NCBI RefSeq assembly: GCF_054482525.1
Contig: NZ_CM137006.1
Reading direction: 5' to 3' (one strand)
Length of the DNA stretch: 64,000 nucleotides
Shown here: piece by piece, positions 17,733-64,000 of the stretch
Layout of the letters: every line of letters begins with the position of its first letter
Numbering within the stretch: the first letter of the stretch is position 1
Position numbers and translations under genes: made by a program
The notes under the pieces: model-generated
Told to the model about the DNA's origin: nothing
The model's database searches: none
What the model saw: the letters and a program-made list of their open reading frames with translations, nothing else

Positions 17733-17808
<76 letters not shown>

Positions 17809-17843
17809 TTGGGTGGTCTGTGCTTTACAGCACTTTCAAATTT

Positions 17844-17919
<76 letters not shown>

Positions 17920-17954
17920 TTGGGTGGTCTGTGCTTTATAGCACTTTCAAATTT

Positions 17955-18030
<76 letters not shown>

Positions 18031-46170: not shown

Positions 46171-46206
46171 ACGACACTTGCAGTGGGAAAGACGGAGGAA
46201 AATAGC

Positions 46207-46782: not shown

Positions 46783-46888
46783 CAGAAACACAGAAAAGAA
46801 GCGATTTGCCGCAATCTTAAGCAGTTGAATCGCTTTTACTGAAATTAGGTTGACGAGATGTGCAGATTACGGTTTAATGCGCCCCGTT

Positions 46889-46964
46889 GCCCGGATAGCT
46901 CAGTCGGTAGAGCAGGGGATTGAAAATCCCCGTGTCCTTGGTTCGATTCCGAGTCCGGGCACCA
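46889..46964 (+). tRNA. pheU: tRNA-Phe (anticodon GAA)
   Basis: 76 nt GCCCGGATAGCTCAGTCGGTAGAGCAGGGGATTGAAAATCCCCGTGTCCTTGGTTCGATTCCGAGTCCGGGCACCA; copy name assumed from position after yjdC. Confidence 0.96.
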
Positions 46965-46973
46965 AATTCATAT

Positions 46974-47001
46974 AAACGGACCTCCACGGAGGTCCGTTTT
47001 T
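46974..47001 (+). terminator. Rho-independent terminator downstream of tRNA-Phe
   Basis: Hairpin aaacggacctccacggaggtccgttttt with a trailing T-run. Confidence 0.85.
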
Positions 47002-47161
47002 CGTTTCAGAACGCCACGATTTAAGCGTTCTGCCTACAAATCAATTCTACCGAACTCAACCAGATTCCCCCCACATCAACCCCATTGTGTGGGTATAATT
47101 GCGGGTATACCCCAGTTCGACAGAATTTGTACCCTCTTTAACGCATTCAGAAGGCTGAACT

Positions 47162-48427: not shown

Positions 48428-48652
48428 CTGAACGCCATTTACACACATGCTCTTCCTCTTAAGGGGAAGAGCACCCGCCTCAATCAATTTCTTTTTTATG
48501 CCGGCGGAACCATCAGCCAGGCTGAGGTTCTCATTCAATAACTCAACGTCTTACCACAGAACAGAATTCACTGTATTATCATGGGCAACGTTAATCCCGG
48601 ACAATAAAAGGACACCGATGCCAGGCATCACAATTTTTATAGCCTGCAGATT

Positions 48653-49726
48653 ATGGTCCATCCTTTTTTACAGGTTCAGAATATGACTGGCAAATTACGC
48701 TTTGAAGTGAACGATAACCAGGGCTGTTTCATATTTTCGGAAACCTGGTTTGGCTCGTTGCTGGATGAGTTTGAAGAACTGATTGATGCATACGATGCGG
48801 ATGAAATCAGCGAAACAAGTTACATCAACAAACTCAGGCGCCTTGCCCGACAGGAGAATGACTTTATTGATGTACACGCTCACTTGGCATACGTATTTCT
48901 GGAGCAGAATGCCCCGCGTAAGGCGCTGAATGCTGCCCTTAAAGGGCTGGCAGTTGGCAATCGTCTTATCCCTGAAGGTTTCAGTGGCAGAATCATCTGG
49001 ATACATCCTGACAACCGACCTTTTCTTCGTGCCCTCTATGCGGCAATCCTGGCAAATGCACATTTACGGCGTCATCAGGATGCCATCATGCTCATTGAAA
49101 AAATACTGGATTACAATCCCGAAGATAATCATGGTGCACGCTGGCTACTGGGACCGGAACTGTTACGCACTGGCGCTCATGAACAGGCACGCCATATACT
49201 GCAGGAACATGCAGATGAATTTTCACCTTACTGGTATGAACTCGGCCTTCTGCATTTTCTTAATGGGGAACTGGTAAAAGCTGCAACTGCATTTCGTCGC
49301 GGCTTTGCGGCAAATACTTACATCGCAGAAATACTGTGCGGAAATCTGCATCCATTTCCACTTGCTGTATGGCATAACTTTTCAGGCGGTCCGGATACTG
49401 CCGAAGATTATTATGCCACATACCACCCGTTATGGGGGCAATATCCGGAAGCATTGCTGTTTGTAAACTGGCTCTATAATCATTCCTCTGTGCTGCATGA
49501 ACGGGCAGAAATCATTAAATGCGCCGAAATGCTGATGCAGGAAGATGATTTCGAAATATGCGAAAGTATTTTAAGACAGCAGGAGAAGTTGCGTGAAAGA
49601 ATTGATGAGACGCTTTCTGAGAAAATTGTACAGAAATGCAGAAATATGAATGGTGAATATGTCTGGCCCTGGATATTGCCGTTTTCAGCGGCAGGCATGA
49701 AACATACTGGCATACAGTATCAGTAG
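48653..49726 (+). CDS. Hypothetical protein, helical/TPR-like repeats, function unknown
   Basis: 357-aa ORF (alternative start 48683 MTGKLRFEV); TPR-like helical repeat segments (for example WYELGLLHFLNGELVKAATAFRRGF); no catalytic motif recognised. Confidence 0.6.
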   Translation: MVHPFLQVQNMTGKLRFEVNDNQGCFIFSETWFGSLLDEFEELIDAYDADEISETSYINKLRRLARQENDFIDVHAHLAYVFLEQNAPRKALNAALKGLAVGNRLIPEGFSGRIIWIHPDNRPFLRALYAAILANAHLRRHQDAIMLIEKILDYNPEDNHGARWLLGPELLRTGAHEQARHILQEHADEFSPYWYELGLLHFLNGELVKAATAFRRGFAANTYIAEILCGNLHPFPLAVWHNFSGGPDTAEDYYATYHPLWGQYPEALLFVNWLYNHSSVLHERAEIIKCAEMLMQEDDFEICESILRQQEKLRERIDETLSEKIVQKCRNMNGEYVWPWILPFSAAGMKHTGIQYQ

Positions 49727-49797
49727 ATATTGCATTAGTGTATCCTGCACACAAGTAATAATTTATCCACCAATAATAACACTGTTAATGTCCCCTT

Positions 49798-49840
49798 CCC
49801 CTGGTTGTCAGCCAGGGGTTATCTTCTGAATATTTCTTTT
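49798..49840 (+). terminator. Putative intrinsic terminator after the 357-aa ORF
   Basis: Hairpin cccctgg-ttgtcag-ccagggg followed by a T-rich tract (ttatcttctgaatatttctttt). Confidence 0.55.
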
Positions 49841-50085
49841 GAAAAGGATAACACAGTAAATTATTTTTATGAATTATCCCATGGACTCATTAACACCCTT
49901 TCATAATGCTTTATTGTCAAACACGTTATGGCTGACATCAAAAAAAACCGGATTTCCTCTGCCAGCGGGTAATCACCTCCCCGGTGTTTTCGGTTGGTCT
50001 GGTTACTCCTGTCTGGTTATGAGCAAGATAATTGCTATAAACAGTGGAAAACTCATCGTACATAATCTGGTGATGAACATTACGC

Positions 50086-51588
50086 TTATTTTCCCTTGAC
50101 CGGAAGAATCAGAGGCTGCGGTTTCAGACTGTCTGCCGGTACATTCCTCTCTCCGTTAAAAACCATAACGGGTTCATTATCTTCGTCTGTCAGCAGATTG
50201 AATGGCGGTATATTTTCAGTACGAATGCCGGTCAGCCACTGAAAAATACCTGCGAAATGACGGGCACTGATTTTTCTGCTGACGGACTGATGAGACGTGA
50301 TGTCACTGGCGGTAATAATCAGGGGAACGCTGTAGCCTCCCTGCACATGACCATCATGATGAACAGGATTAGCACTGTCGCTGACCGACAGACCATGGTC
50401 AGAAAAGTAAAGCATGGCAAAATGACGGGAATGCCGGCGAAGGATACCATCAAGCTGCCCGAGAAAGTTATCCAGTTTACTGATGCTGGCGAGGTAACAG
50501 GCAATCTTCCGGGGGAACTGCTCCTGGTAATTATTCGGCCAGGAGTGAAGCCGGTCACACGGGTTCGGATGAGACCCCATCATGTGCAGGAATATCACCT
50601 TCGGAGAGGATTTATCCGCCAGCGCACGTTCTGTTTCCTGTAACAACAACATGTCATCCGTTTTACGGGAAGCGAAGCTGCCTTTCTTGAGGAAAACGGT
50701 ATGCTCCGCATCAGAAGCAATAACAGAGATGCGTGTGTCATGCTCTCCCAGTTTTCCCTGATTGGATATCCACCATGTGCTGTATCCTGCTTTTGCTGCC
50801 AGCGCCACCACGTTGTTGCCGGAATCAGGGTTCTGCTCATAGTCATAAATCAGTGTCCGGCTCAGGGAAGGCACAGTACTGGCTGCTGCCGATGTATAGC
50901 CGTCAATAAATAAACCGGGAGCAGTATTCAGCCACGGTGTGGTTGGCACGGGATAGCCATATACCGACATATAATCCCTGCGCACACTCTCACCAGTGAC
51001 GATAACAATCGTGTCATACAACGGTACACCCGGCAGGATTTTCCAGTTGTCAGCCCCGTGCTGATTCAGTTGTTTATAACGCTGCATTTCACGCAATGTG
51101 TCAGTTGTCCCCACAACAGTTCCTTTAACCATCCGCAACGGCCAGCTGTTTACTGAGCATAATACGAACAGCAGCAGTGCCAGCCAGTTACGGTGACCAC
51201 GGCGGTGTGTTCGCCAGAAAATCACCATGAATACCTGAATCGCGGCACTGACCAGAAAATGATAAACAGGAATCATCCCGGTAAACTCCGCTGCCTCATC
51301 AGTTGTGGTCTGCAGCAACGCGACAATAAAACTGTTGTTGATTTTACCGTACGTCATACCGGCAGGCGCATACAGTGCACAACAGAACAGAAATAACAGC
51401 GCTGTAATGGATGTGAGGGTATTTCTGTGTGCAAGGAGCAGAAGAAGGAACAGCAGCAACACATTCCCGGTGGCATTCTTCTCAGTGTATCCGCATGCAA
51501 TTGTGGTTATTGCAGAAACGACAAAAAAGAATAAAAACAATAAAATCCGGGGGGTGTTACCCGGACAAAACAGTTTTCTGATATTCAT
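50086..51588 (-). CDS. Phosphoethanolamine-transferase-like membrane enzyme (sulfatase/alkaline-phosphatase superfamily, EptA/OpgE-like)
   Basis: 500-aa ORF; N-terminal multi-TM region, then a soluble domain with transferase-like motifs (TGESVRRDYMSVYGY and HMMGSHPNP); AT-rich. Confidence 0.7.
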   Translation of the reverse strand: MNIRKLFCPGNTPRILLFLFFFVVSAITTIACGYTEKNATGNVLLLFLLLLLAHRNTLTSITALLFLFCCALYAPAGMTYGKINNSFIVALLQTTTDEAAEFTGMIPVYHFLVSAAIQVFMVIFWRTHRRGHRNWLALLLFVLCSVNSWPLRMVKGTVVGTTDTLREMQRYKQLNQHGADNWKILPGVPLYDTIVIVTGESVRRDYMSVYGYPVPTTPWLNTAPGLFIDGYTSAAASTVPSLSRTLIYDYEQNPDSGNNVVALAAKAGYSTWWISNQGKLGEHDTRISVIASDAEHTVFLKKGSFASRKTDDMLLLQETERALADKSSPKVIFLHMMGSHPNPCDRLHSWPNNYQEQFPRKIACYLASISKLDNFLGQLDGILRRHSRHFAMLYFSDHGLSVSDSANPVHHDGHVQGGYSVPLIITASDITSHQSVSRKISARHFAGIFQWLTGIRTENIPPFNLLTDEDNEPVMVFNGERNVPADSLKPQPLILPVKGK

Positions 51589-51647
51589 CGGAGTATATCG
51601 ACAACATTATTATGAAGAGAACAGGATAATAAAAATCAGAAATTATC

Positions 51648-51692
51648 TGTAAAACAGATAAAAGACAACCCTGCAGTAATAGACTGCAGGGT
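51648..51692 (-). terminator. Putative intrinsic terminator after the outer-membrane protein gene
   Basis: Perfect hairpin accctgcag-taataga-ctgcagggt with a T-run following it on the minus strand. Confidence 0.6.
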
Positions 51693-51769
51693 ATTTCTGT
51701 TTAATTGCAGAAGATATGCAATTATCTTAATTACAGAATATACGCAATTATCGTTCAGGAGCAGTGTCG

Positions 51770-52510
51770 TCAGAAGTTATAAGTCATACCAAGCATGATG
51801 TCATGACTTTTAACATCAACTTCTGACTTATATTTATCGCCCCACTCGTCCTTGTAACTCACACTGCTGTCACCTGCATCAAGATAGCGATAGCTGAGGT
51901 CCAGAGCGATATCCGGGGTTACGTCATAGCGGACACCCGCGCCAAGGCTCCATGCGAAGTTGTCAGCAGAGCCTGAACGTGACAACGATTCGCGACCACT
52001 GCTTCCGTACTCATAATCCCAGGTACTGATACCGGTTGTTTTCTGGTGAATTCTGGCGTAGCCAATCCCTGCGGATACCCATGGTGTGAATGCGCTGTCA
52101 TTCCGGAAGTCATAGTACGCATTCAGCATTAGTGTGTTGACTGACACCTCATTCTTCAGGTCATCACGCCAGTAACCACCTGACCAGCTGTCTTTATCTA
52201 CGTTATACTTCGAATCAGCTTTTCCACGAGCGTAAAACTCCAGTTCTGTTCGAACCGGAATACTGAACTGCGGATAAAAATCATAACCAGCCGCGATACC
52301 ACCACTGAATACCGTATCATGGTCATCGCCGCCTTTATACTTTGACGTTTCTTCCTCATCTCCTGACAGGAAATGCTGGTCTGAAAGTGACACCACAGAG
52401 GTACCGGCTTTACCGGTCAGATAAAAACCGCTTTTACCTTCCTCAGCACCTGCATTTGCTGCAAATACACAGGCTGTGGCCACCACTGAAACAGCAAAAA
52501 CCTTTTTCAT
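51770..52510 (-). CDS. Outer-membrane beta-barrel protein of the Hek/Hra/Tia (opacity-adhesin/invasin-like) family
   Basis: ORF 51770..52525; start MKKVFAVSVVATACVFAANAGA (signal peptide); alternating amphipathic beta-strand pattern; C-terminal barrel signature ending in Phe (LGMTYNF). Confidence 0.65.
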   Translation of the reverse strand: MKKVFAVSVVATACVFAANAGAEEGKSGFYLTGKAGTSVVSLSDQHFLSGDEEETSKYKGGDDHDTVFSGGIAAGYDFYPQFSIPVRTELEFYARGKADSKYNVDKDSWSGGYWRDDLKNEVSVNTLMLNAYYDFRNDSAFTPWVSAGIGYARIHQKTTGISTWDYEYGSSGRESLSRSGSADNFAWSLGAGVRYDVTPDIALDLSYRYLDAGDSSVSYKDEWGDKYKSEVDVKSHDIMLGMTYNF

Positions 52511-52727
52511 TTCAATTATCTCCATTATTGTATCATCATTTTAATATATATTTTTAATATTTAAAAACCGGACTAAAGGCAGCCTCAACACTCCACACTA
52601 CGGAAGCCAGACTTTTACTCTACACAAAATAAATATATCTTCTCAGTGAGGACGTGAACGCCTGTCTGAAATTATGTGAATACAACCTCCCCAGAATACA
52701 AACAGGCAGGGGCACTGGAGTAACCGA

Positions 52728-53096
52728 TCACAATACTTCTGCCTTTTTATATTTTACCGATAATCTCCGTTTAATATAGTTCTTACCGATTTCATAATCG
52801 GGGTTCCATGTAGATAAATTATGAACACCTATTGCTACTGCACTCGCCACTCCCAGAATTACGGTTGGTGACCATAAAGAACCAGCTAAAGCTGTACTCC
52901 TGTACTCAGTATATACACGACAACTTAATTTCGTTTTCTCTATTTCATGCTCCACTCTTTTTACCGTTTCACTAACATCGGAAACATTTTCGATCACAAA
53001 ACTCTTACGTTCATAAATAAGCTTGCTTAATGTATTTATATCTAAAAATTTCGCATCAAAAGAATCAATCTGTACTGTTTTTTCTTGTGCTGACAT
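52728..53096 (-). CDS. Hypothetical protein with a single C-terminal TM helix
   Basis: 122-aa ORF in an AT-rich segment; hydrophobic stretch ALAGSLWSPTVILGVASAVAIGV; no recognisable domain. Confidence 0.45.
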   Translation of the reverse strand: MSAQEKTVQIDSFDAKFLDINTLSKLIYERKSFVIENVSDVSETVKRVEHEIEKTKLSCRVYTEYRSTALAGSLWSPTVILGVASAVAIGVHNLSTWNPDYEIGKNYIKRRLSVKYKKAEVL

Positions 53097-54404
53097 CTTC
53101 TTTTCCTGGCTGGTATGGCAAGTGACGGAGACAAGAGAAACGTTTTAAGCTCAGTTATCTCCGCCATCACTTTCCACGAATGACAAGTAATTTTGCCTAT
53201 TTTAAAACCATGCAAAAGGCAGGGTAAAAGGAGAAAATTCGATCGAATCGATCGACAAAATCGATCATACATGATGAAGATTTTTTATCGAATCCATAAA
53301 AATAGTGACAGCTAACCGGCGTTGCAGGAACAGTCAGAAATGGGCGTTTGGGAAAGAGCCATAGCACTACGTCGTCGCTGACATAGAGGAACTGTGCTTT
53401 GTTGATAAGATCCTTTATACGGCAACCAATCCACTGGACAAAAGATGAACTACGTAATCACCGGGTTCTCACTGACGAAATACAGAAGTTAATGACACAA
53501 CTGTGCCATGTACCTTGTACAACAGCGGTGGAAAGCTCTCAGAACAATGGAATTGCAGAAAGGTGTTAAAACGATGAAAGCCTTCATACCCAAATCGAAT
53601 GTAAGAACGGCAGTAAAGACTGAATTGCGTAACCTTGCATTAGCTCGAGTATTACACTGCATAGTGTGCAGGGTTATCTCCCATCGAGAAAATATCGGCG
53701 CCAGCGAATAACGTCACCTTAGATGTAGCAGTTGCCAAATAGTGACTCAAGGGCGGGCTTACCGCATACACTGACACTTAGCGGATCGACAGAATATTAT
53801 TAGCAGATCATCCCTGAACGCAACGTAATTATCGTAATAAAGGCTTTTTCTGGCTACCAGGAAGATCTGACATGGCTCTGCTCTGGAACCAGGCCGCAGG
53901 AAGCATCAATCTGGAGTTTATCAGCTACTGGAATTCCGGTGTATTGGCAGCCCCTGATAATCACCTGACCCACGAAGAGCGCTCTGCTTTGCAGAAACTC
54001 TGGGGCGGTTTGGAGACAGGAGATGCCATTTAACGATTATAGGACGTTCTGATGAAGTCCATGATTTTACCTCCGCCTTAATTAACTGTTTTCTTTCTGA
54101 AGAAGAGATTGTCTGGTGGCAATCAGGTGGCATTTTCCCGGATCCCTGGCCCGCTAATATATCCCGGCTGAACTGACGATTAACGCGATATTGCAAATAT
54201 GGCATCTGAATCGATCATGATTTGGCGGCATCCATCTCCGTTCACAGTTTGGCATGCTTCCGATCATTGATTGGCATCCAGCCAGTCACTCCGGGAATTA
54301 ACTCTTTTCACCGCAGTCTCCATTGCCGTGTTTAAACCAATGGAGACGTCAATGTCCAAAAAGAGAATATCCAGGAGCACTATGGATACCTGTTTTAAGA
54401 TCCT

Positions 54405-54623
54405 TCAGCTCAAGTTCGACCAGAAGCTGGCTAACCGTTGTATCGGACTTGCAAAACACCAATGGGGATTGATCTCTATTTTGCGACACAGACGCATTAT
54501 CAATACATCGATGGTGCGATCAAATACCTCAGTGCTCTCACCGTGGATCAAATCCAGCAATTGCTCACAGATTAAGACTCGTCGGGAGTTTTGAGCCAAC
54601 GCCAGCAGTAAACCCATATTCAC
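54405..54623 (-). pseudogene. Fragment of a winged-helix (OmpR/ToxR-type) DNA-binding domain; probably a gene remnant
   Basis: 72-aa ORF containing ...EQLLDLIHGESTEVFDRTIDVLIMRLCRKIEINP, matching the recognition-helix and wing pattern of OmpR-family output domains; no receiver domain or full-length ORF around it. Confidence 0.4.
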
Positions 54624-54954
54624 CTTGAGTGAAATCTACAGGCTGTTGATGAGCATCAACCAGCACGTAACGGTCCGGGATCAAGTGTCCAGCCGTTAAA
54701 AAAACCACTCTACTACCCTGCTCGACCTAAGCCTCGGCGTTCAGCCGCCTGAACGGGTATGGCAAGGGTGAAAAGAAACAGCATCCCCAAAGTACCGACC
54801 AGACGACAGGATGATGCTGGAACAGAAAGCATACGCACCTCCCTTAGAATTAGACAGTGCGTACAGGATACGTAAGACAGGGTGACGGGGCGGCGATAAA
54901 CCCCGAACACATGGCAGAGTGTGACCACCGGATAATGCGCTCTGAGTTTCCCGA

Positions 54955-55269
<315 letters not shown>

Positions 55270-55285
55270 TTATGTTGTGGTGAGA

Positions 55286-55328
<43 letters not shown>

Positions 55329-55329
55329 A

Positions 55330-55700
55330 AACGACATTCGTGCCGGATGCACTGGAGCAGGCAGTATGGGCCGTCGTCCATCTGGCACCATCCATCACAG
55401 TAATAAAGGTTCTCAGTATGTATCGCTGGCCTACATGCAGCGACTTAAGGAAGCCGGATTACTGGTATCAACAGGGAGTCCTGGCGACTCGTATGACAAC
55501 GCGATGGAGGAGAGCATCAATGGTCTTTACAAAACGGAGGTAATACACCGTAAGAGCTGGAAAAAACCGGACAGAAGTGAAACTGGCCACACTAACGTGG
55601 GTGGACTGGTATAACAATCGACGATTACTGGAAAGGCTGGGCCATATTCCTCCGACAGAAACAGAAAAAGCTTATTATGCCTCCATCGGAAACAATGATC
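55330..55700 (+). pseudogene. IS3-family transposase orfB C-terminal fragment (frameshifted), opposite orientation to the orfA remnant
   Basis: Translation HHSNKGSQYVSLAYMQRLKEAGLLVSTGSPGDSYDNAMEESINGLYKTE, then in another frame LTWVDWYNNRRLLERLGHIPPTETEKAYYAS; DDE integrase-core C-terminus. Confidence 0.7.
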
Positions 55701-56034
55701 TGGCAGCCTGAGTTCACAGATAAAATACTCTCCAGGAAAACCGGGATGGTTCACCGGAGTGTTAAAGTGTGGCTTAAAATTATGCAGTTGCCGCCTGGCG
55801 GTCAAGACTGTCGCTACAGGATAAATCGCTCCGGTGAAACACAACTGCGCAAATCACCATACTGTGCATACGTATTACCGTGAAGGAGATCGGTGAGTTA
55901 CGGGGTTATTGGGTGATCTCCTTCCATGAAAATACGCAGAGCACTTAAATCGCTGCTGGCGCGCACTAAAAACGTGTCAACCTGGTTCCATTAGCGTAAC
56001 ATCAAAGCGAGCACTTAAGAAGCAGAAGAGCAAC

Positions 56035-56751
56035 CTACAGGTTAACCCGAACCATATTAAATTCATAATCTTTTAACTGCTCAGACCTGATCACCAGAAA
56101 TCTGCCATTACCTGACTTAAATGATTTTGATAAAACAAGTGTGGTATCATATCTGGCTAAAACATAATACCACCCGTCATTATAATTCATCATTTCATAT
56201 TCTTTCTTGAATTGCGGCTTGTAAAAGCCAACAGAAAATGAAAAAACCCAGAAATATATGACAAAGCCGACAAGACATATTTCAGAAATATGTTTCTTTA
56301 CAAAGATACTCTCTGAAAAACATGATGCTGAAACACGGTGGCCACAGGTTCTTATAAGAAAAACAAGAATAAGGGATACCGCTACTGATAAGGTAAGAAG
56401 TTTTAATGCCAGATGATTCTTTAGCACAGAGAACTCAATCACCACCGGAACAAACAATAAGAATGAGGCAAGAAAAAGTCTGAAAAAGCTCAATTCATGC
56501 ATGCTTGCTTTGTTTTTTATTCCAAGAAAGAAAAGTACTCCCGCGCCCCATGAGAGAAACAGGATGACCATTATAGTAATTGCATGAAACAGGCTTCTTG
56601 CAACATCGTCAATACCTGCACTGACAACCCACCATGGGAAACCATAATAAAAAGAGACACCCCACCCGTAAAAATATGCACTTCCCCATCCGAGACATCC
56701 CATATAAGCCACAAATAAGGAAGAATTTTTGAGCAACGCGTTGCTGTTCAT
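56035..56751 (-). CDS. Hypothetical polytopic membrane protein, function unknown
   Basis: 238-aa ORF in a strongly AT-rich segment; about five predicted TM helices rich in aromatic residues, then a roughly 60-aa soluble C-terminus; no recognisable family. Confidence 0.5.
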   Translation of the reverse strand: MNSNALLKNSSLFVAYMGCLGWGSAYFYGWGVSFYYGFPWWVVSAGIDDVARSLFHAITIMVILFLSWGAGVLFFLGIKNKASMHELSFFRLFLASFLLFVPVVIEFSVLKNHLALKLLTLSVAVSLILVFLIRTCGHRVSASCFSESIFVKKHISEICLVGFVIYFWVFSFSVGFYKPQFKKEYEMMNYNDGWYYVLARYDTTLVLSKSFKSGNGRFLVIRSEQLKDYEFNMVRVNL

Positions 56752-57243
56752 TTTTACCCCTGTAAAACTGGAATAAGTAACAGAATAGCATTGACATTGT
56801 CAAGATGAACAGCATGCATTGTAACAGTCTGCAGCTTATGTTCTCCGTGGATAATTATTCTTATTTCATGGTGATTTTTGTTATATTTTAAAATGCATAT
56901 CTCACCATTTAGTTTTTTATATCACAAAAACATAGTGATGCAATCATACACACCTGCCTCTATCGTACAGAGAAAACGGGCAATTATTTGTATTATTCCT
57001 TCATAACGACTTCAGTATACAGGATGACCGCAACCACGCTCCTTCTCCTGCCCGGGCGAAGTGCCTGGTTCAGACAATGACATTAACTGGCTGAAATTTT
57101 CGACGCGGTACAGGTCTCCCTGCTTTGAAAGGTGCCTGGCGCTGCAATTTTTTATCATTTGTTTTTGTATCCGGCAAAACACGTCTGCAAGAATCATTAT
57201 TCTCTTGCCTGAAGCTATCCGGCATCCTCAGGCATTTCACGCT

Positions 57244-57795
57244 TTATGAGCTGACATCATCAAGATGCGCCAGTAATTTTTTATTAATGACTTCAAACAG
57301 TTCCTGTTCATCATGGGTCAGATAATCCCAGATTTCTTTCAGATACATGCTTTGTGCAAGAGTGAGCCTCTGAATAAAAAACATACCTTCAGATGTCAGA
57401 CTGATTTTTTTAGCACGGCGATCCTCCCTGCTATCCATCCTTTTTACATACCCGGCTTTTTCTAAAAAATCTGTAATGCGGGTAATATTAGTTCTGGTAA
57501 ACTGCAGTTTCTGGCTTATCTCTGAAGGTGACAGACAATGACTCTCCGCTGTGAATAATGTGGTGAGAACCATGTACACTGAGTGATTTATTCCATACGC
57601 CCCCAGAAATTCAGATATATTATCCTGCATCCTTTTATTTGCGCGAATACAGAGTTGCATCAACAAATGTTCCTGAAAGGGATATGCGGGGTCTTTGTTT
57701 TTTTGGTGTCTGATTATTTTTTCTAATGTGTCTGTGTTATTCATTTCATTATTCTCCATATTACTGAAACACACTGTCTGTGTACAAGCGCGCAT
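57244..57795 (-). CDS. MarR-family regulator of the PapX/SfaX/FocX type (fimbria-linked motility repressor)
   Basis: 183-aa ORF (true start may be internal, for example MENNEMNNTD); MarR winged-helix region ...TRTNITRITDFLEKAGYVKRMDSREDRRAKKISLT; located at the distal end of the fimbrial operon. Confidence 0.7.
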   Translation of the reverse strand: MRACTQTVCFSNMENNEMNNTDTLEKIIRHQKNKDPAYPFQEHLLMQLCIRANKRMQDNISEFLGAYGINHSVYMVLTTLFTAESHCLSPSEISQKLQFTRTNITRITDFLEKAGYVKRMDSREDRRAKKISLTSEGMFFIQRLTLAQSMYLKEIWDYLTHDEQELFEVINKKLLAHLDDVSS

Positions 57796-57941
57796 CAGTC
57801 ATCCGGTAAACTTCGACTTTCCACTACAATTTATTCCTGCCTGATTTCTGTATAACTGAGATATCCCGGCACAGCGGACAGATAAATTTCCTCAGATAAA
57901 AGAACATAAATGCTGGCTGCTGGCAAGTCTGTGAAAAAGGA

Positions 57942-58682
57942 TTATCCATACTGCTCAGTAATCGCGGATAATTCATCAGCTCCCACACGCCTGTAGAGCC
58001 ATCCCTGACAGCCCTGGACATTCATGTCTCTGGCAATACGGAACAACGCTTCATTTTCAACACCTTCAAGTATTACGCCCCGGTTATGACAGGCAACAGT
58101 GTCTGCCACAGCATGGAGAAGCGGCATTGCACTCCTGTTTTTCAGGGCATAATGAAAAAACTCATGACTTATTTTTACCCGTTCAAACATCCCGGACAGT
58201 CCCCACATTAAGCCTGCATTTCCTGAGCCGAAATCATCCAGCCAGAGGGTGAAACGTTCTGACAAAAAACGTAACAGGGGGTCATCACCGGGTTTTAACG
58301 CCACTGCCGGAAAGTCCTCACTGACCTCAAGCCTGATATGTGTTCCCGGCCGCCCCGGGATGCCATGTTTTCTCAGATACAGGGCTACCACCCGGGAAAT
58401 ATTGACACTCAGCATTATTTTCTTCTGCAGACACCATTTATGAAGCGTTTCAGCAGTCTTCAGCTGACTGATGAGTATTTTGTACTGAATATCCGGAGGC
58501 GCACTTCTGAAAAAAACAGATGCGCAGATTTTCCTCCCGTCTTTTGCTGAACGGATATCCGAGAGCATTTCAAAAGCAAATATTTTCCCGGTCTGATTCC
58601 ATACAGGCTCAAAAACCGGTGAGAGGATATATTCTGTTCTGCCTGATTTCACCTCCAGTATACTGTTAACTGCCCCTGACAT
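57942..58682 (-). CDS. Stand-alone EAL-domain protein (SfaY/FocY-like putative c-di-GMP phosphodiesterase)
   Basis: 246-aa ORF with EAL-domain motifs (EML in place of EAL, LWLDDFGSG, ILEGVENE, QGCQGW); between the adhesin gene and the MarR gene. Confidence 0.7.
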   Translation of the reverse strand: MSGAVNSILEVKSGRTEYILSPVFEPVWNQTGKIFAFEMLSDIRSAKDGRKICASVFFRSAPPDIQYKILISQLKTAETLHKWCLQKKIMLSVNISRVVALYLRKHGIPGRPGTHIRLEVSEDFPAVALKPGDDPLLRFLSERFTLWLDDFGSGNAGLMWGLSGMFERVKISHEFFHYALKNRSAMPLLHAVADTVACHNRGVILEGVENEALFRIARDMNVQGCQGWLYRRVGADELSAITEQYG

Positions 58683-58985
58683 TACTCCTCCGGAAATATG
58701 AGCCCCTCCCGACCAGAAGGTCTGGCTGGATAAGCGCAGTTCTTCTGATTTGATTTTTAAACCCTCAGATTTACCATTATCTTTATGATTACTGACAACG
58801 CTCAGAACCAGATATACGGCTCATACTGGTTCTGTTTATCTTTGACAAAGACCATATGACAGACTCGTTCCGTCACAACACCGGAAACAATACTATTATC
58901 AGCTATTTTTCTCCACAAACAGTGATACATTAAATGAAAAACTGGATATAAAGAGCAGTAATATCATTACCGCCACAACTGCATT

Positions 58986-59954
58986 CTAGTTGTAGCTAAA
59001 AGTCACATTTATCACTGACTGGACAGCACCGGGCGTCGGACTTGCCTGACCGGTCAGAGCATAAGAGGCCTTCAGCCCCAGACTCACAGGAGAGCTACCT
59101 ACCTGTCCCAGAGACCTCGGTTGTCCGGCCGGAACCGGCCCCGCGTTGTCCGACAACTGTACACCCACACCGCCGGCCCCTGATGTTGCCGTATTTGCGA
59201 ATACAGTATTACCACTTCCTGTTACAGAACCTGACAGGGTATAGCTGACCGACTGTGTCTGGTCGCAACGTACAGTAAGAGGGACTGTTACCGGCCCTCC
59301 GGGATAGGACGGAAGGTCAACTTTGACATTGTTCGATGAGACCCTGCATGTACCTGTCTGGATATAGACATCATTCGTTGCATAGAAACGCCAGGTGAAA
59401 TTTCTCTCCCCTGCCTCCTGCCCCATGGTGGAAAACTTATTAACATAAACTGTGGCCACTAATTCTCCGGCATGTATCAGTTTCCCGAAAACGCCCGGCT
59501 CAGGATAAAGGTACATTTTTGCCGGGAAAGGTTTCCATACACCATATTGCCAGTAAGCTTCTGTTGGCTTTGTGTCTTGCTGCAGCGGTAACGTCTGACT
59601 ATACCCAGAAAGCCTGTTTGTAAAGTCCAGCCTTCCGTATGTTTTAGCATCTAATGAAGGAGAAAAACCGGTTCCCTGTCTGACCCTGAGATAGTCATAG
59701 TTCTGACCAGAGGCATCTTCATTCTGACATAACACCAGTTGATTTAAATCCAGAACTGTAATGGCTTTATCATACTGAACTGTTGGGGAAAGAGTGATAT
59801 TGAAGCGACTGTCTCCAGACTGAAAAGTCTGCCCTGTCTGGTTATTTCTGCACAACAGTGCAAACGATGGCTGGGAATATGCCATTATAAATGTGAATAA
59901 AACACAGCCCTCGAGGACGGTGCTTTTCTTAAAGAGGGGATAATATTTACGCAT
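58986..59954 (-). CDS. Fimbrial tip adhesin, two-domain FimH/SfaH/FocH-like
   Basis: ORF 58986..60002 (start chosen at MRKYYPLFKK..., uncertain); the C-terminal pilin domain is closely similar in pattern to FimH (...GVGVQL...VSLGL...NVTFSYN); the N-terminal lectin domain is divergent. Confidence 0.8.
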   Translation of the reverse strand: MRKYYPLFKKSTVLEGCVLFTFIMAYSQPSFALLCRNNQTGQTFQSGDSRFNITLSPTVQYDKAITVLDLNQLVLCQNEDASGQNYDYLRVRQGTGFSPSLDAKTYGRLDFTNRLSGYSQTLPLQQDTKPTEAYWQYGVWKPFPAKMYLYPEPGVFGKLIHAGELVATVYVNKFSTMGQEAGERNFTWRFYATNDVYIQTGTCRVSSNNVKVDLPSYPGGPVTVPLTVRCDQTQSVSYTLSGSVTGSGNTVFANTATSGAGGVGVQLSDNAGPVPAGQPRSLGQVGSSPVSLGLKASYALTGQASPTPGAVQSVINVTFSYN

Positions 59955-60450
59955 AGGTATAGGTGACAGTAATTTGTGAATTAATACTTCCCGCACCAGC
60001 ATTACCTTTGCTTACGGCACGGACTTTAAGATTGAATGTCGCCTGCCCATTGCTCACTGTAACAACTTTTGTTGAACCAACTTTCAAGGGGGTATTACCA
60101 TTACCTTGTTCCTGTAGCTCAACCATGATATTAGTAGCATCCCCTGTATTTCTGTAATAATTTGTATTTTCTGCGGTTCCACCAAAGGTGGCAGTAACAT
60201 TGTTTACATTCTGACAATTCGTCAATGTCAACGAAAAATTTTTCCACTGAGAGGTGCTGTTGGCTGCTATCAGGTCAGAAGTGTAAGCGTTATCCAAAAC
60301 AACGGTGGCGTTTGGGTTTCCTCCATTACCAATGGTACAGGTACGTGGCAATACCCTCCCTGTAACAGTAATCGTCGTATCCACTGCCTGTGCTGAAAAT
60401 GCAATACAGTTAATAAGACCGGTGGCCAATATAATAGCTTTCAGTTTCAT
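59947..60450 (-). CDS. Fimbrial minor subunit (SfaS/FocG/FimG-like)
   Basis: 167-aa ORF with a signal peptide, pilin fold and C-terminal beta-strand ending ITVTYTYA. Confidence 0.8.
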   Translation of the reverse strand: MKLKAIILATGLINCIAFSAQAVDTTITVTGRVLPRTCTIGNGGNPNATVVLDNAYTSDLIAANSTSQWKNFSLTLTNCQNVNNVTATFGGTAENTNYYRNTGDATNIMVELQEQGNGNTPLKVGSTKVVTVSNGQATFNLKVRAVSKGNAGAGSINSQITVTYTYA

Positions 60451-60471
60451 CTGTTTTCCTCTGTGTTATAT

Positions 60472-60999
60472 TTACTGATAGTCAAGTACAAAATTAACCA
60501 CCGCATCAACATTACCGGCCTTTACCGGAAGATAAGTGGCTTTCAGACGGGCATAAAACGCTATGGTCTGTGTTCCCGGCATTAACGCAATTGTTGTCGG
60601 CACATTAATTTTCAGCTCATGTTTATCCTTATCAAGAAGCTGAATCCCCACACCCCGTGCTCCATTTATGCTGTTAATCTGAATAAGCCCCGCCTCCTGA
60701 TTATCTGGTGTGCCCGTAAATGTCAGCTTCACTGCACTGACAGCACTGCCGCAGGAGGTCAACCCGACATGAAATACCGACGCAGGTGTGGTATCACCAG
60801 CTGCGGTAAACTGTCGGCTGTCATAACTTCCCAGACTGACATCAAGGTTTCGGGAGTTAATGTCAACATCGCAGGTGTTATCCTGAACATTGCCTGTAAT
60901 ATTCACCACAGAACCCGCTGCACAGACATGACAGGTAACGAACATACTGCCGGCCAGCATGCAGGAGAATGTCACTGTTTTAATAATATCCTTCACCAT
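60472..60999 (-). CDS. Fimbrial minor subunit (SfaG/FocF/FimF-like)
   Basis: 175-aa ORF with a signal peptide and pilin C-terminus NFVLDYQ. Confidence 0.8.
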   Translation of the reverse strand: MVKDIIKTVTFSCMLAGSMFVTCHVCAAGSVVNITGNVQDNTCDVDINSRNLDVSLGSYDSRQFTAAGDTTPASVFHVGLTSCGSAVSAVKLTFTGTPDNQEAGLIQINSINGARGVGIQLLDKDKHELKINVPTTIALMPGTQTIAFYARLKATYLPVKAGNVDAVVNFVLDYQ

Positions 61000-61011
61000 T
61001 TCCCTGCCTCT

Positions 61012-63567
61012 TTACCTGCAACTAACCGTGACATGACTTAATATCTGTCCGGCGCTTTCCTTCGGTAATTTATAATCTGCAGTACACTGGTCCGTGGTCT
61101 GACTCCCCCATTTCACACTAACCTGTCCTGACAGAGGCATTCCGCTCAGATAAACCTGACCATTCTCTCCGGCAATACTGCTCCCCCCGTTTCTGGCCGT
61201 AACAACAGAGCCAAAAGGAACTGCTTTCCCGTTTCTCATCAGCGTCATCAGCACTTTCACACCCACACGGGTTTTATAGTCAGCCCGCACAACGGCACCA
61301 TGCGTGGGCACGACGCTGACCACGGTATTCTCTATATCAACATTATCTGCAAGGGTGTTGGTATCCAGTGCCACCCGGTTTTCACGATAGTCTGTTGCAT
61401 AAGGCAGTACAGCATACCCCCTCCAGTCTGTAGACACCCCCGTCTGGTTTTCAATGCGCGTATCAGATGCACCTGGTGCACGGACAAGAATCAGCGTATC
61501 TCCCAGAGGCTGGCTCAGTGTCAGACCATTGGCATGTGCCAGAATACCGCCACTCAGCCCATAATACAGTTGCCGGTAACCCCCACTGTGACTGTATCCT
61601 GCACTGGCATTACCGTATCCCCCTCTGTAATTCAGAGAGGCATATCCTGTTTTACTGCTCCCCTCATACCCTCCCCGGGTATAACCACTCTGGATGCTGT
61701 ATCCCAGATTATTGTCCCCCAGCAATGTGCCATACAGCCCTGCTGTACTGGCAGCCTGTCCGTGAGCCTCCAGGGTCTGACTGTAACGGGCACTGGCGTT
61801 TCTCCATGCAGATGTGCTGTCCGAACGCATCCAGTGGCTGAACGGAATGCTGACATCAAATGACAGTATCCGGTCAGTTTCATGTTGCCATGCATTCCGG
61901 GACAGGCTGTAGTTCAGGGACCAGCTGATGTCATTCACAGATGAGTTAAAGCCAGCATTAAGCTGACGGTCCGTCCTGTCCGTTCCCCAGTAACTCTGGT
62001 GGCTGCCACTCAGATACAACGTTGACGATTCCCCCGTCTGCTGGCTGATACTCACCTGCACCCTTCCCCGCTTGTTGTAAGCCAGATTGTAGTAATCCGT
62101 ATACTTCGGCTGTATCTGTATCACTCCGTCCTGGGTAAGAACACTGTAACCACTCATTTTCTTCCAGGCGGTATCAGCAAAGCTGAAATAGCCCCGTGTG
62201 GAGTAGCGGTATCCGATTAACTGGATATTTGTCCCTGTTTCCGTCAGTGACTTGTTATACAGAAAACGATATGACTGACCGTCATGCCGGCTTTCATCCG
62301 GTAACCGGGCATTCGCACGGGTGGCATCCAGTGAAACAGCACCCAGCCAGCCCATGTTTTTACCCACCCCCAGATTGAAGGCACGGTAGCGTTCAGCTAT
62401 CCAGGCTCCTCCATACACCGTCCAGCCTGCCGGCAGACCATACTTCAGCGTTCCTTCAGCAAAACGGGGATTATCCTGCTGATGTCCGCCACTGCGAAAC
62501 TCTCCGGCACTGAGAGCATATTTCAGATGTCCTTCACGTTGCAGTACAGGCACCGAAGACCATGGCACATTAAATCGCTGTACACTGCCATCAGCTTCCT
62601 GCAGGGTTACCTGTAAGTCTCCTCCACTCCCGGCCGGATAAATATCGTTTATCTCGAACGAGCCTGGAGGTAGCGTACTCTGGTAAATTTCATACCCGTT
62701 CTGGCGGATACTAATCCGGGATGTTCCCCGGGAAATACCGTGAATTGTCGGTGCATACCCTCTCTGGCTGTCCGGAACCATATTGTCATCAGAGGCCAGT
62801 TGAATACCCCTGAAATTTACACCGTCAAAAATATCCCCCCGGGTATAACTGTCCCCCATCGTCAGACGGGAGCGCAGGGGAACTATATCCCGCTCCAGCC
62901 AGGTGTTAATGTGCTGCCAGTTATTCTGGCTGTACCCCTTTCCGGCACTGTAACTCCAGCTGGTGTTGTCCCGAAGACGCCAGCTCCCGATATTCAGTCC
63001 TGTTTTCAGATTCAGATAGGCATAATCGCTGGTGCCACCATAGCTGTCGCGCACCCGATTACCACTGAAGTCATAATTCAGCAATGCCGCTGTAATTCCG
63101 TTATCCCAGTATTCCGGCGCAATATAACCACGGGCCTGATTACTCATATATATCTGAGGAACGGTCAGGTACAATCGCTGCTGCCCGACATCAAACCGGA
63201 ATGTGGCACCCTGAATCATGGAATTCAGTGATGTGCAGGTGTCAGCCGGCAGTCTCTCCATACCCGGCACGGCATAACGGTTTACCCCCATCGCACTCAT
63301 ATGCTCCGGACTCAGGCAGGGGGCAAGTTGCTTCCCGTCCTGACTCATCTGAAACTGCACGTCACGGGTTGAGATATACGTATCATTCAGATAAATATCC
63401 ACCCGGTACACACCGGGCGGAAGCTCCTGCCCCTGTGTAAATGCAGACAGGTCCGCAACCGCATCCGGGTCATCAGACAGAAAACGCGGATTAAAATAGA
63501 GCTCAGCCCGGGCCGGAGAAACAATTATCCCGATAAAAAATGCCAGCGGCAGTATATTAAATTTCAT
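61012..63567 (-). CDS. Fimbrial outer-membrane usher (FimD/SfaF/FocD family)
   Basis: ORF 61012..63690; start placed at MKFNILPLAFFIGIIVSPARA (signal peptide, preceded by a GGGGG ribosome-binding site); strong collinear similarity to FimD throughout. Confidence 0.9.
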   Translation of the reverse strand: MKFNILPLAFFIGIIVSPARAELYFNPRFLSDDPDAVADLSAFTQGQELPPGVYRVDIYLNDTYISTRDVQFQMSQDGKQLAPCLSPEHMSAMGVNRYAVPGMERLPADTCTSLNSMIQGATFRFDVGQQRLYLTVPQIYMSNQARGYIAPEYWDNGITAALLNYDFSGNRVRDSYGGTSDYAYLNLKTGLNIGSWRLRDNTSWSYSAGKGYSQNNWQHINTWLERDIVPLRSRLTMGDSYTRGDIFDGVNFRGIQLASDDNMVPDSQRGYAPTIHGISRGTSRISIRQNGYEIYQSTLPPGSFEINDIYPAGSGGDLQVTLQEADGSVQRFNVPWSSVPVLQREGHLKYALSAGEFRSGGHQQDNPRFAEGTLKYGLPAGWTVYGGAWIAERYRAFNLGVGKNMGWLGAVSLDATRANARLPDESRHDGQSYRFLYNKSLTETGTNIQLIGYRYSTRGYFSFADTAWKKMSGYSVLTQDGVIQIQPKYTDYYNLAYNKRGRVQVSISQQTGESSTLYLSGSHQSYWGTDRTDRQLNAGFNSSVNDISWSLNYSLSRNAWQHETDRILSFDVSIPFSHWMRSDSTSAWRNASARYSQTLEAHGQAASTAGLYGTLLGDNNLGYSIQSGYTRGGYEGSSKTGYASLNYRGGYGNASAGYSHSGGYRQLYYGLSGGILAHANGLTLSQPLGDTLILVRAPGASDTRIENQTGVSTDWRGYAVLPYATDYRENRVALDTNTLADNVDIENTVVSVVPTHGAVVRADYKTRVGVKVLMTLMRNGKAVPFGSVVTARNGGSSIAGENGQVYLSGMPLSGQVSVKWGSQTTDQCTADYKLPKESAGQILSHVTVSCR

Positions 63568-63711
63568 TCTGTTATTACCCCCGCCAGCAGAGCCGGTCAG
63601 TGATTTATCAGACAGGAGTTGTCCGCCATCTCCGGAAAACATGTCAGCCCCCACACTGAGCGAAAAAATAAAATCAGCAGCCAAACACAACCAGTACCAG
63701 AAATAACTGAG

Positions 63712-64000
63712 TTACTTCACCACACCCCTCACCTGTTCAGTCAGAGCACCATAATCGTTAATTGTTTTATAAGTAATATCTCCTCCGGTGTATCCTCCAG
63801 GGATATTCACAGTGACCTTTCCCAGTGGGGGTACCATGGTGTTTTCAAGACTTTTATTTCCGGCCTTTAAGTCAGTCACTGTCAGATAATACGGCGTCGG
63901 ATTAAGCAGAGTCAGCCCTCCGTTTTCACGGGTGAACTCTAATTTACCCGGTGCCTGTTCTGGCGGAATAACCAGTCCCTGTGGACGGTAGAGCAGTTTA
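63712..64000 (-). CDS. Fimbrial periplasmic chaperone (FimC/SfaE-like), 3-prime portion only; the 5-prime end is beyond the window
   Basis: Minus-strand translation ...KLLYRPQGLVIPPEQAPGKLEFTRENGGLTLLNPTPYYLTVTDLKAG...INDYGALTEQVRGVVK*, matching the PapD-like chaperone C-terminal domain. Confidence 0.8.
   Translation of the reverse strand, partial: KLLYRPQGLVIPPEQAPGKLEFTRENGGLTLLNPTPYYLTVTDLKAGNKSLENTMVPPLGKVTVNIPGGYTGGDITYKTINDYGALTEQVRGVVK

What the first reader, a model, noticed from the sequence alone, without database searches (positions are those of the whole stretch)
58986..64000. S/F1C-type chaperone-usher fimbrial operon with a divergent FimH-like tip adhesin
The order chaperone (partial), usher, two minor subunits, then a two-domain adhesin matches the sfa/foc/fim (gamma-1) layout. 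The adhesin pilin domain is FimH-like, but the N-terminal lectin domain is clearly different from FimH, so receptor specificity cannot be assumed. The major subunit and the promoter or phase-switch region lie outside the window.
Basis: partly seen in the sequence, partly recalled or inferred. Interest (0 to 1): 0.45.

Follow-up and report, generated by a model that had tools for sequence, protein, structure and literature searches.

The report
Known F1C fimbrial operon, distal half
This stretch is the well-known F1C (foc) adhesive-fimbria gene cluster of extraintestinal pathogenic E. coli, intact and almost identical to the copies in strains CFT073 and Nissle 1917, so it is ordinary rather than new.

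Summary
On the minus strand of 58986-64000 lie the 3' end of a fimbrial chaperone, an 876-aa usher, a FimF-like subunit, a FimG-like subunit and a two-domain FimH-like adhesin, all intact. The 7 kb is 100% identical to E. coli AF20. FocG is 167/167 identical to CFT073/Nissle 1917 FocG. FocH differs from CFT073 FocH by one pilin-domain residue, its lectin domain is identical, and the exact protein is on record from 419 contigs. Its divergence from FimH (29% lectin, 54% pilin) is the known property of FocH, whose receptors are published (GalNAcβ1-4Gal glycolipids, asialo-GM1). Two mildly unusual points: the operon sits in a tRNA-Phe (pheU) island rather than the iroN-linked site of CFT073/536, and in the five nearest genomes checked the major subunit (outside the window) is an unnamed variant, 77% identical to FocA. 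Verdict: already known, low interest.

The parts
63712..64000 (-). 3' part (95 codons plus stop) of the periplasmic chaperone gene focC/sfaE; its 5' part lies beyond the window end
   Evidence: Matches the C-terminal half of FimC (NCBIfam NF011742, E 4e-19, profile positions 137-224 of 230). 100% DNA identity to the gene annotated 'S/F1C fimbrial biogenesis chaperone SfaE/FocC' in AF20. 92/95 aa identical to CFT073.
61012..63642 (-). Outer-membrane usher focD/sfaF, 876 aa
   Evidence: NCBIfam PRK15193 usher 1063 bits (cutoff 995) and FimD subfamily 952 bits. 871/876 identical to the CFT073 usher and 872/876 to the 536 usher. Annotated sfaF in all relatives.
60472..60999 (-). Minor subunit focF/sfaG, 175 aa, FimF-like adaptor
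   Evidence: Best NCBIfam hit FimF, E 2.5e-43. 174/175 identical to the CFT073 protein.
59947..60450 (-). Minor subunit focG, 167 aa, FimG-like; the gene that separates F1C from S fimbriae
   Evidence: Best NCBIfam hit FimG, E 4e-40. 167/167 identical to CFT073 FocG but only 61% to SfaS of strain 536. DNA 100% identical in CFT073, Nissle 1917 and 83972.
58986..59954 (-). focH, two-domain tip adhesin (322 aa from ATG 59954; RefSeq annotates a GTG start at 59996, giving 336 aa)
   Evidence: Pfam FimH_man-bind residues 35-188 and Fimbrial residues 200-322. Full-length alignment to FimH structures, E 5e-46. 335/336 identical to CFT073 FocH, the single difference (P287 versus L) lying in the pilin domain; 85% to SfaH. 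The exact protein is seen on 419 contigs and is named FocH. ATG 59954 overlaps the focG stop codon by 8 nt (ATGCGTAA), the same arrangement as annotated for sfaS/sfaH in strain 536.
   Evidence: NCBIfam cyclic-guanylate phosphodiesterase PRK11596, E 1.8e-19. 240/246 identical to CFT073 SfaY. Annotated sfaY in relatives. Function from the literature: PMC6385356, PMC4164713.
57244..57795 (-). sfaX/papX-family MarR/SlyA-type regulator, 183-aa ORF
   Evidence: NCBIfam MprA/MarR family, E 9e-37. 180/183 identical to CFT073 SfaX. Annotated PapX (WP_032156748.1) in AF20. SfaX/PapX family described in PMC4164713.
46889..46964 (+). Context only: the tRNA-Phe gene that marks the core-genome edge of the island carrying the operon; integrase at 47162-48427
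   Evidence: ARAGORN and Rfam tRNA hits. Integrase ORF. The collinear annotated region in TUM13773 runs dsbD - dicD - tRNA-Phe - integrase ... sfaX - sfaY - focH.

Best explanation
The region is the distal half of an S/F1C-family chaperone-usher fimbrial operon of extraintestinal pathogenic E. coli, with an F1C-type tip: focC' (cut by the window end), focD, focF, focG and focH, followed by the accessory genes sfaY and sfaX/papX.

Mechanism, from established knowledge of type 1 and F1C pili:
- Subunits are exported by Sec, captured by the FocC chaperone through donor-strand complementation, and delivered to the FocD usher.
- Assembly starts with the two-domain adhesin FocH, then the adaptors FocG and FocF, then the major-subunit rod, by donor-strand exchange.
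- The N-terminal lectin domain of FocH binds non-sialylated Gal/GalNAc glycolipids (GalNAcβ1-4Galβ of asialo-GM1/GM2, galactosylceramide, globotriaosylceramide), not mannose.
- SfaY lowers c-di-GMP. SfaX/PapX is a MarR/SlyA-type regulator that couples fimbrial expression to other surface functions.

Shown here: gene content, intactness, near-identity to the reference foc operon, domain architecture, and loss of the FimH mannose pocket. Inferred: expression, assembly and receptor binding in this particular strain.
For: - The 7 kb at 57000-64000 is 100% identical to E. coli AF20 and 99.3-99.9% to more than 10 other complete genomes, all annotated sfaF, sfaG, focG, focH, sfaY, papX/sfaX.
- Protein identities to CFT073: usher 99.4%, FocF 99.4%, FocG 100%, FocH 99.7%, SfaY 97.6%, SfaX 98.4%, with no stops and equal lengths.
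- FocG and FocH are F1C-type, not S-type: 61% to SfaS and 85% to SfaH.
- Family and domain hits.
- The lectin domain's closest solved relatives are FmlH (E 1.5e-14) and FimH (about 1e-11). FimH Q133, N135, D140 and F142 are replaced, whereas the FmlH galactoside-pocket residues D53, K132 and R142 are kept as D55, K141 and R152 (FmlH residues from PMC5866590). This fits the published Gal/GalNAc specificity of F1C (PMC12442223; PMC8545135: asialo-GM1 Kd about 109 nM, no binding to Man5).
- Upstream gene order in five near-identical genomes is sfaC, sfaB, major subunit, sfaD, chaperone, usher, with pap-type GATC sites 102 bp apart.
Against: - The window lacks the promoter, the regulators, the major subunit, sfaD and most of the chaperone gene. 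A complete, expressible operon therefore cannot be shown for this genome.
- In the five nearest genomes checked, the major subunit is not FocA but an unnamed variant (77% FocA, 72% SfaA-I). 'F1C' in the strict serological sense may not apply to the shaft.
- The location, a pheU island, differs from the iroN-linked site of the reference foc and sfa operons.
- No expression or binding data exist for this strain.
- The true focH start codon is ambiguous (59954 versus 59996/60002).
Confidence: 0.95

Rival explanations
1. It is an S-fimbrial (sfa) operon whose receptor-binding subunit is the small sialic-acid adhesin SfaS, with the two-domain protein playing a secondary role.
For: Usher, FocF/SfaG, SfaY and SfaX are 96-99.5% identical to those of the sfa operon of strain 536. 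RefSeq uses shared S/F1C names for these genes.
Against: The gene in the SfaS position is 167/167 identical to FocG and only 61% identical to SfaS. The adhesin is 99.7% FocH versus 85% SfaH, and 74% in the lectin domain.
Confidence: 0.02
2. The two-domain protein is a new, divergent FimH-like adhesin with an unknown receptor.
For: The lectin domain is only 29% identical to FimH, and most mannose-contact residues are changed. No solved structure of a FocH or SfaH lectin domain is in the PDB copy searched ('N/D' in PMC12442223).
Against: The lectin domain is identical to that of CFT073 FocH. The exact protein occurs on 419 contigs in a cluster of 1406 members named FocH. 149 records in the complete-genome set carry focH at 99% identity or more. 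Receptors of F1C/FocH are published (PMC12442223, PMC8545135).
Confidence: 0.02
3. The cluster is a silent or decaying second copy (a cryptic operon in a degraded island) that makes no fimbriae.
For: The island downstream is littered with frameshifted IS, transposase and other pseudogene fragments. Some relatives carry two or three S/F1C-family loci per genome. At least one relative (SCU-484) has a split usher, and two have an IS3 insertion within the matched 7 kb.
Against: In the window all five structural genes and both accessory genes are full length without stops. The nearest genomes keep intact regulators, major subunit, sfaD and chaperone, and the conserved GATC switch. Near-identity across many lineages argues for selection.
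Confidence: 0.08

Closest known systems
F1C fimbriae, foc operon (focAICDFGH plus focY/X) of E. coli CFT073, Nissle 1917, AD110
   Same: Same gene order. FocG is identical, FocH differs by one residue, and usher and FocF are 99.4% identical. The same sfaY and sfaX genes lie downstream.
   Different: The chromosomal site is a pheU tRNA-Phe island, not next to iroN. In the five nearest genomes checked the major subunit is an unnamed variant, 77% identical to FocA; this lies outside the window and is not verifiable for this genome.
S fimbriae, sfa operon (sfaCBADEFGSH plus sfaY/X) of E. coli 536 / IHE3034
   Same: Same architecture. Usher 99.5%, SfaG 98.9%, SfaY 98.8% and SfaX 96.2% identical. 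Same sfaC/sfaB regulators and GATC spacing in relatives.
   Different: SfaS versus FocG 61%. SfaH versus FocH 85% overall and 74% in the lectin domain. S fimbriae bind sialyl-α2-3-galactosides through SfaS (PMC12442223).
Type 1 fimbriae (fimC-D-F-G-H), adhesin FimH
   Same: Same order: chaperone, usher, FimF-like, FimG-like, two-domain adhesin. Usher scores 952 bits on the FimD model. FocH aligns with FimH over its full length, and the pilin domain is 54% identical.
   Different: The lectin domain is 29% identical. Mannose-pocket residues F1, Q133, N135, D140, F142 and the tyrosine gate Y48/Y137 are replaced. Regulation is pap-like (Dam/Lrp GATC sites) rather than the fimS invertible element (plus established knowledge).
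F9/Fml pilus adhesin FmlH
   Same: It is the closest solved lectin domain (E 1.5e-14, slightly better than FimH). The loop carrying K132 and R142 aligns with one single-residue gap, and D53, K132 and R142 are conserved (PMC5866590). Both bind Gal/GalNAc-type ligands.
   Different: N140 becomes G, Y46 becomes D and F1 becomes L in FocH. It belongs to a different operon (fml/yde). The ligands differ: Galβ1-3GalNAc for FmlH and GalNAcβ1-4Gal for F1C, according to the literature.

Membership tests
Chaperone-usher fimbriae of the Fim/Sfa/Foc (γ1) type | A periplasmic PapD/FimC-type chaperone gene immediately upstream of the usher gene | tested here: met
   The 95-aa C-terminal fragment at 63712-64000 matches FimC (E 4e-19) and lies 69 nt upstream of the usher start. 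Full-length chaperone in this position in relatives.
Chaperone-usher fimbriae of the Fim/Sfa/Foc (γ1) type | FimD-like outer-membrane usher | tested here: met
   876 aa. NCBIfam PRK15193 1063 bits, above its cutoff of 995; FimD subfamily 952 bits.
Chaperone-usher fimbriae of the Fim/Sfa/Foc (γ1) type | FimF-like and FimG-like adaptor subunits followed by a two-domain (lectin plus pilin) adhesin | tested here: met
   FimF E 2.5e-43 and FimG E 4e-40. FimH_man-bind plus Fimbrial domains. Full-length alignment to FimH.
F1C (foc) fimbriae | FocG (not SfaS) as the penultimate minor subunit | tested here: met
   167/167 identical to CFT073 FocG and 61% to SfaS.
F1C (foc) fimbriae | FocH (not SfaH) as the two-domain adhesin | tested here: met
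   335/336 identical to CFT073 FocH and 85% to SfaH. The exact protein is named FocH in public sources.
F1C (foc) fimbriae | FocA major subunit (the F1C serotype determinant) | tested here: inconclusive
   The gene lies outside the window. In the five nearest genomes that share the downstream junction (AF20, TUM13773, UPEC 26-1, N12, K56-43-un) the major subunit is an unnamed variant, 77% identical to FocA and 72% to SfaA-I.
F1C (foc) fimbriae | Binding to GalNAcβ1-4Gal / asialo-GM1/GM2 glycolipids, with no mannose-sensitive or sialic-acid-dependent haemagglutination | not testable with these tools
   Only indirect support: the lectin domain is identical to CFT073 FocH, and receptor data come from the literature (PMC12442223, PMC8545135).
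S/F1C family regulation (pap-type phase variation) | Divergent sfaC / sfaB (PapI/PapB-type) genes with two GATC sites about 102 bp apart | tested here: inconclusive
   Outside the window. Present in AF20, TUM13773, CFT073 and 536, with GATC at intergenic positions 135 and 237.
FimH mannose-specific adhesins | Conserved mannose pocket (F1, N46, D47, D54, Q133, N135, D140, F142; established knowledge of FimH structures) | tested here: not met
   N46, D47 (E/D) and D54 are kept. F1 becomes L, Q133 K, N135 M, D140 G and F142 R in the pairwise alignment.

The most novel reading that the evidence does not exclude
The window's operon may be the pheU-island paralogue of foc seen in AF20, TUM13773, UPEC 26-1, N12 and K56-43-un. 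There an F1C tip (FocF/FocG/FocH) is mounted on a rod built from an unnamed major subunit, 77% identical to FocA and 72% to SfaA-I. That would be an antigenically distinct, not formally described member of the S/F1C family. It could have arisen by recombination of a foc/sfa cluster into a pap-type pheU island, perhaps through the shared papX/sfaX end. Whether this variant equals the old 'Sfr' or 'Sfx' fimbriae could not be checked.
Probability: 0.3. Interest if true: 0.2.

Novelty: already known. Interest (0 to 1): 0.07.

Why it matters
F1C fimbriae are an established adhesin of uropathogenic and bloodstream E. coli and of the probiotic strain Nissle 1917. Recognising them helps type the strain as ExPEC-like with a pheU pathogenicity island. 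For a novelty scan the finding carries no new biology: genes, proteins, order, regulation and receptor class are all described. Two open items remain, and neither is specific to this window. No experimental structure of a FocH lectin domain appears in the PDB copy searched. The shaft variant linked to this pheU-island copy has no name in RefSeq.

Tried and rejected
- Promoter and terminator consensus scans over 56700-64000 gave counts at the shuffle expectation (11 versus 11.8; 6 versus 5.9). A 9-bp hairpin at 58954-58974, just after the focH stop, cannot be called a terminator on this evidence.
- The Rfam gathering-threshold scan of 46000-64000 found nothing inside the operon, only tRNA-Phe and an isrC match in the IS debris.
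- NCBIfam has no model that captures FocH as a whole, only weak pilin-domain hits (E 3e-5). Identification rests on Pfam, the PDB alignment and near-identity to annotated FocH.
- I looked for literature linking foc to pheU and for a sequence-level description of S/F1C-related (Sfr) fimbriae, to name the variant major subunit. Nothing usable turned up.
- AF20 as the exact source genome was rejected: identity is 100% over the operon, but the alignment goes out of register about 11.4 kb downstream.
- I did not run structure prediction. The lectin domain is identical to a known protein, and homology to FimH and FmlH is already unambiguous by sequence.
Full report
**Observation.** ORF listing of 54000-64000 shows an unbroken series of minus-strand reading frames.
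- 63712-64000: open to the window end.
- 61012-63642: 876 aa from the ATG preceded by GGGGG. The mechanical ORF extends to 63690.
- 60472-60999: 175 aa.
- 59947-60450: 167 aa.
- 58986-60002: 338 aa as the mechanical ORF.

NCBIfam assigns these frames as follows.
- The first matches the C-terminal half of FimC-type chaperones (E 4e-19).
- The second is a fimbrial usher (PRK15193, 1063 bits, above its cutoff of 995; FimD model 952 bits).
- The third is FimF-like (E 2.5e-43).
- The fourth is FimG-like (E 4e-40).

The last protein carries Pfam FimH_man-bind (residues 35-188, E 2.5e-17) and Fimbrial (residues 200-322). It aligns over its whole length with solved FimH chains (E 5e-46).

**Identity.** A megablast of 57000-64000 against 5,426 complete E. 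coli genomes gave a 100% identical, full-length match in isolate AF20 (blood culture, UK). It also gave matches of 99.3-99.9% in UPEC 26-1, UPEC957C, N12, TUM13773, 998, UPEC_U013, K56-43-un and others. All are annotated sfaF (S/F1C usher SfaF/FocD), sfaG (SfaG/FocF), focG, focH, sfaY and papX/sfaX.

I compared the translated genes with the reference foc operon of CFT073 and the sfa operon of 536.

| Protein | Versus CFT073 | Versus 536 |
|---|---|---|
| Usher | 871/876 | 872/876 |
| FocF | 174/175 | 173/175 |
| FocG | 167/167 | 61% (SfaS) |
| FocH | 335/336 | 85% (SfaH) |
| SfaY | 240/246 | 243/246 |
| SfaX | 180/183 | 176/183 |

None has an internal stop, and all match the CFT073 lengths.
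- The one FocH difference (P287 here, L in CFT073; SfaH also has P) is in the pilin domain. The lectin domain is identical to CFT073 FocH.
- The focG DNA is 100% identical in CFT073, Nissle 1917 and 83972.
- focH is 99.8% identical in CFT073 and Nissle 1917.
- The exact 336-aa RefSeq form of this FocH is on record from 419 contigs, in a 90% cluster of 1,406 members named FocH.

The cluster is thus the F1C-type member of the S/F1C family, and it is not a new allele in any meaningful sense.

**The 'divergent' lectin domain.** Split at the conserved TG(T/G)C linker, mature FocH is 29% identical to FimH in the lectin domain and 54% in the pilin domain. Against SfaH the figures are 74% and 97%.
- In the pairwise alignment FimH N46, D47 and D54 have counterparts. 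F1, Q133, N135, D140, F142 and the tyrosine-gate residues Y48 and Y137 are replaced (pocket residues from established FimH structural work).
- With the lectin domain alone as query, the best solved relatives are the F9 pilus adhesin FmlH (E 1.5e-14), then FimH (about 1e-11).
- The FmlH loop carrying K132 and R142 aligns with one single-residue gap. FmlH D53, K132 and R142 correspond to FocH D55, K141 and R152. N140, Y46 and F1 are not conserved. The FmlH contact residues are taken from PMC5866590, where K132Q abolishes binding.
- This fits the published specificity of F1C fimbriae for non-sialylated Gal/GalNAc glycolipids, with FocH regarded as the tip adhesin. Reported ligands are GalNAcβ1-4Galβ, asialo-GM1 (Kd about 109 nM) and asialo-GM2, galactosylceramide and globotriaosylceramide, with no interaction with Man5 (PMC12442223, PMC8545135).
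The specificity is not unknown, however.
- No FocH or SfaH lectin-domain structure is in the PDB copy searched. The only F1C-labelled entry is a FimH chimera, 7szo, carrying a short FocH pilin-domain patch.

Two further genes lie downstream on the same strand.
- sfaY (57942-58682) is a stand-alone EAL-domain protein (E 1.8e-19 to a c-di-GMP phosphodiesterase model).
- A MarR/SlyA-type regulator of the SfaX/PapX family lies at 57244-57795 (E 9e-37 to MprA).

Both are standard distal genes of sfa and foc clusters. The literature describes SfaY as a stand-alone phosphodiesterase encoded in the sfa cluster. It describes SfaX/PapX as SlyA-like regulators encoded by fimbrial clusters (PMC6385356, PMC4164713).

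The focH start is ambiguous.
- ATG 59954 overlaps the focG stop by 8 nt (ATGCGTAA), as annotated for sfaS/sfaH in strain 536. It gives a 322-aa precursor with a plausible signal peptide ending SFA/LLC.
- RefSeq chooses GTG 59996.

**Upstream half, read in relatives.** The window ends inside the chaperone gene. In AF20, TUM13773, UPEC 26-1, N12 and K56-43-un the sequence continues upstream with the rest of focC, then sfaD, a major subunit, sfaB and the divergent sfaC. These five genomes share the operon and its downstream junction.
- The sfaC-sfaB intergenic region has GATC sites 102 bp apart within the conserved CGATCTTTTA / AAAGATCG motifs. They sit at the same positions in CFT073 and 536. 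This is the pap-type Dam/Lrp arrangement (established knowledge), not a fim-type invertible element.
- The major subunit in these five genomes is annotated only as 'fimbrial protein' (WP_000768214.1 / WP_033551929.1). It is 77% identical to FocA and 72% to SfaA-I, while FocA and SfaA-I are 78% identical to each other.
- About 57-60 of 5,426 complete genomes carry this variant at 95% identity or more. It is in a protein cluster of 144 members without a specific name.

Because this gene is outside the window, its presence in the source genome is an inference from the nearest relatives.

**Context.** The operon is not at the iroN-linked site where foc (CFT073) and sfa (536) lie. Window 33000-57900 is collinear with TUM13773 and about 220 other genomes. 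The order is frd, ampC, efp, groSL, aspA, dcuA, dsbD, dicD, tRNA-Phe, integrase, a TPR protein, a phosphoethanolamine transferase, an outer-membrane protein, IS and pseudogene debris, an STM1630-family ORF, then sfaX, sfaY and focH.
- The window has tRNA-Phe at 46889-46964 (+) and the integrase ORF at 47162-48427.
- This is the pheU site, where ExPEC strains such as CFT073, CE10 and S88 carry P-pilus/PapX islands (PMC7545054).
- Strain GABEEC132 has a classical foc match elsewhere on its chromosome that stops about 230 bp short of the downstream end of the query, and it also has the window's pheU-island downstream region at a second site. This suggests that the fimbrial cluster in this island has been exchanged by recombination near the papX/sfaX end. 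That is an inference I did not test.

**Mechanism.** The mechanism is that of the family.
- Assembly is chaperone-assisted donor-strand complementation followed by usher-catalysed donor-strand exchange. The order is FocH, FocG, FocF, then the rod. The FocH lectin domain provides receptor binding.
- Phase-variable transcription comes from the sfaB-proximal promoter.
- SfaY and SfaX link fimbriation to c-di-GMP level and to other regulons.

Only gene content, intactness and sequence identity are shown here. Expression and binding are inferred from identity with characterised alleles.

**Rivals.**
- An S-fimbrial (SfaS) reading is excluded by the FocG and FocH identities.
- A new adhesin with an unknown receptor is excluded by the identical lectin domain and the abundance of the allele.
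- A silent or decaying copy cannot be excluded without the upstream sequence and expression data. It has no support in the window. Some relatives do have disrupted copies, with a split usher in SCU-484 and IS3 insertions in two strains.

**Verdict.** The pheU-island location and the unnamed shaft variant in relatives are minor points worth a note. Interest is low.

Noticed in passing
window 46889-64000 (tRNA-Phe 46889-46964 +; integrase 47162-48427 +; TPR ORF 48653-49726 +; phosphoethanolamine transferase 50086-51588 -; outer-membrane protein 51770-52525 -): The fimbrial operon lies in a genomic island inserted at tRNA-Phe next to dicD/dsbD (the pheU site). This is not the iroN-linked site of the reference foc (CFT073) and sfa (536) operons. 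pheU islands of other ExPEC strains usually carry P pili with papX.
   Followed up: partly
outside the window: L001 6395-6943, L004 4295-4843, L005/L006/L007 1395-1943: In all five nearest genomes checked, the major subunit of this operon is an unnamed 'fimbrial protein', 77% identical to FocA and 72% to SfaA-I. About 57-60 of 5,426 complete E. coli genomes carry it. It may be an undescribed, or old and unsequenced (Sfr/Sfx), shaft variant with an F1C tip.
   Followed up: partly
window 59947-60002: The focH start codon is ambiguous. ATG 59954 overlaps the focG stop by 8 nt (ATGCGTAA), as annotated for sfaH in strain 536. RefSeq annotates GTG 59996, which gives a 50-nt overlap and a 14-residue N-terminal extension before the signal peptide.
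   Followed up: partly
window 55151-55273 (-): Full-length Rfam match to the isrC Hfq-binding sRNA (93 bits, gathering score 39), lying among frameshifted IS3/transposase fragments at about 54000-55900.
   Followed up: no
window 56035-56751 (-): A 238-aa, very hydrophobic ORF in a low-GC stretch (about 36%). It is annotated 'STM1630 family protein' or 'hypothetical' in relatives, has no NCBIfam hit, and sits immediately downstream of sfaX/papX.
   Followed up: no
window 58954-58974 (-): A 9-bp hairpin followed by a T-rich tail, 12 nt after the focH stop and ahead of the 303-nt gap to sfaY. It could be an attenuating terminator between the structural and accessory genes, but terminator-like sites in the region are no more frequent than in shuffles.
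   Followed up: partly
relatives: UPEC 26-1, AF20 and others: Several genomes carry two or three S/F1C-family loci. UPEC 26-1, for example, has focH at 1.74 Mb and at 4.72 Mb, so the pheU-island copy can coexist with another foc-type locus elsewhere on the chromosome.
   Followed up: no
window 17733-18030 (-): Three tandem tRNA-Gly(GCC) genes in the core-genome part of the window. This looks like an ordinary tRNA cluster.
   Followed up: no
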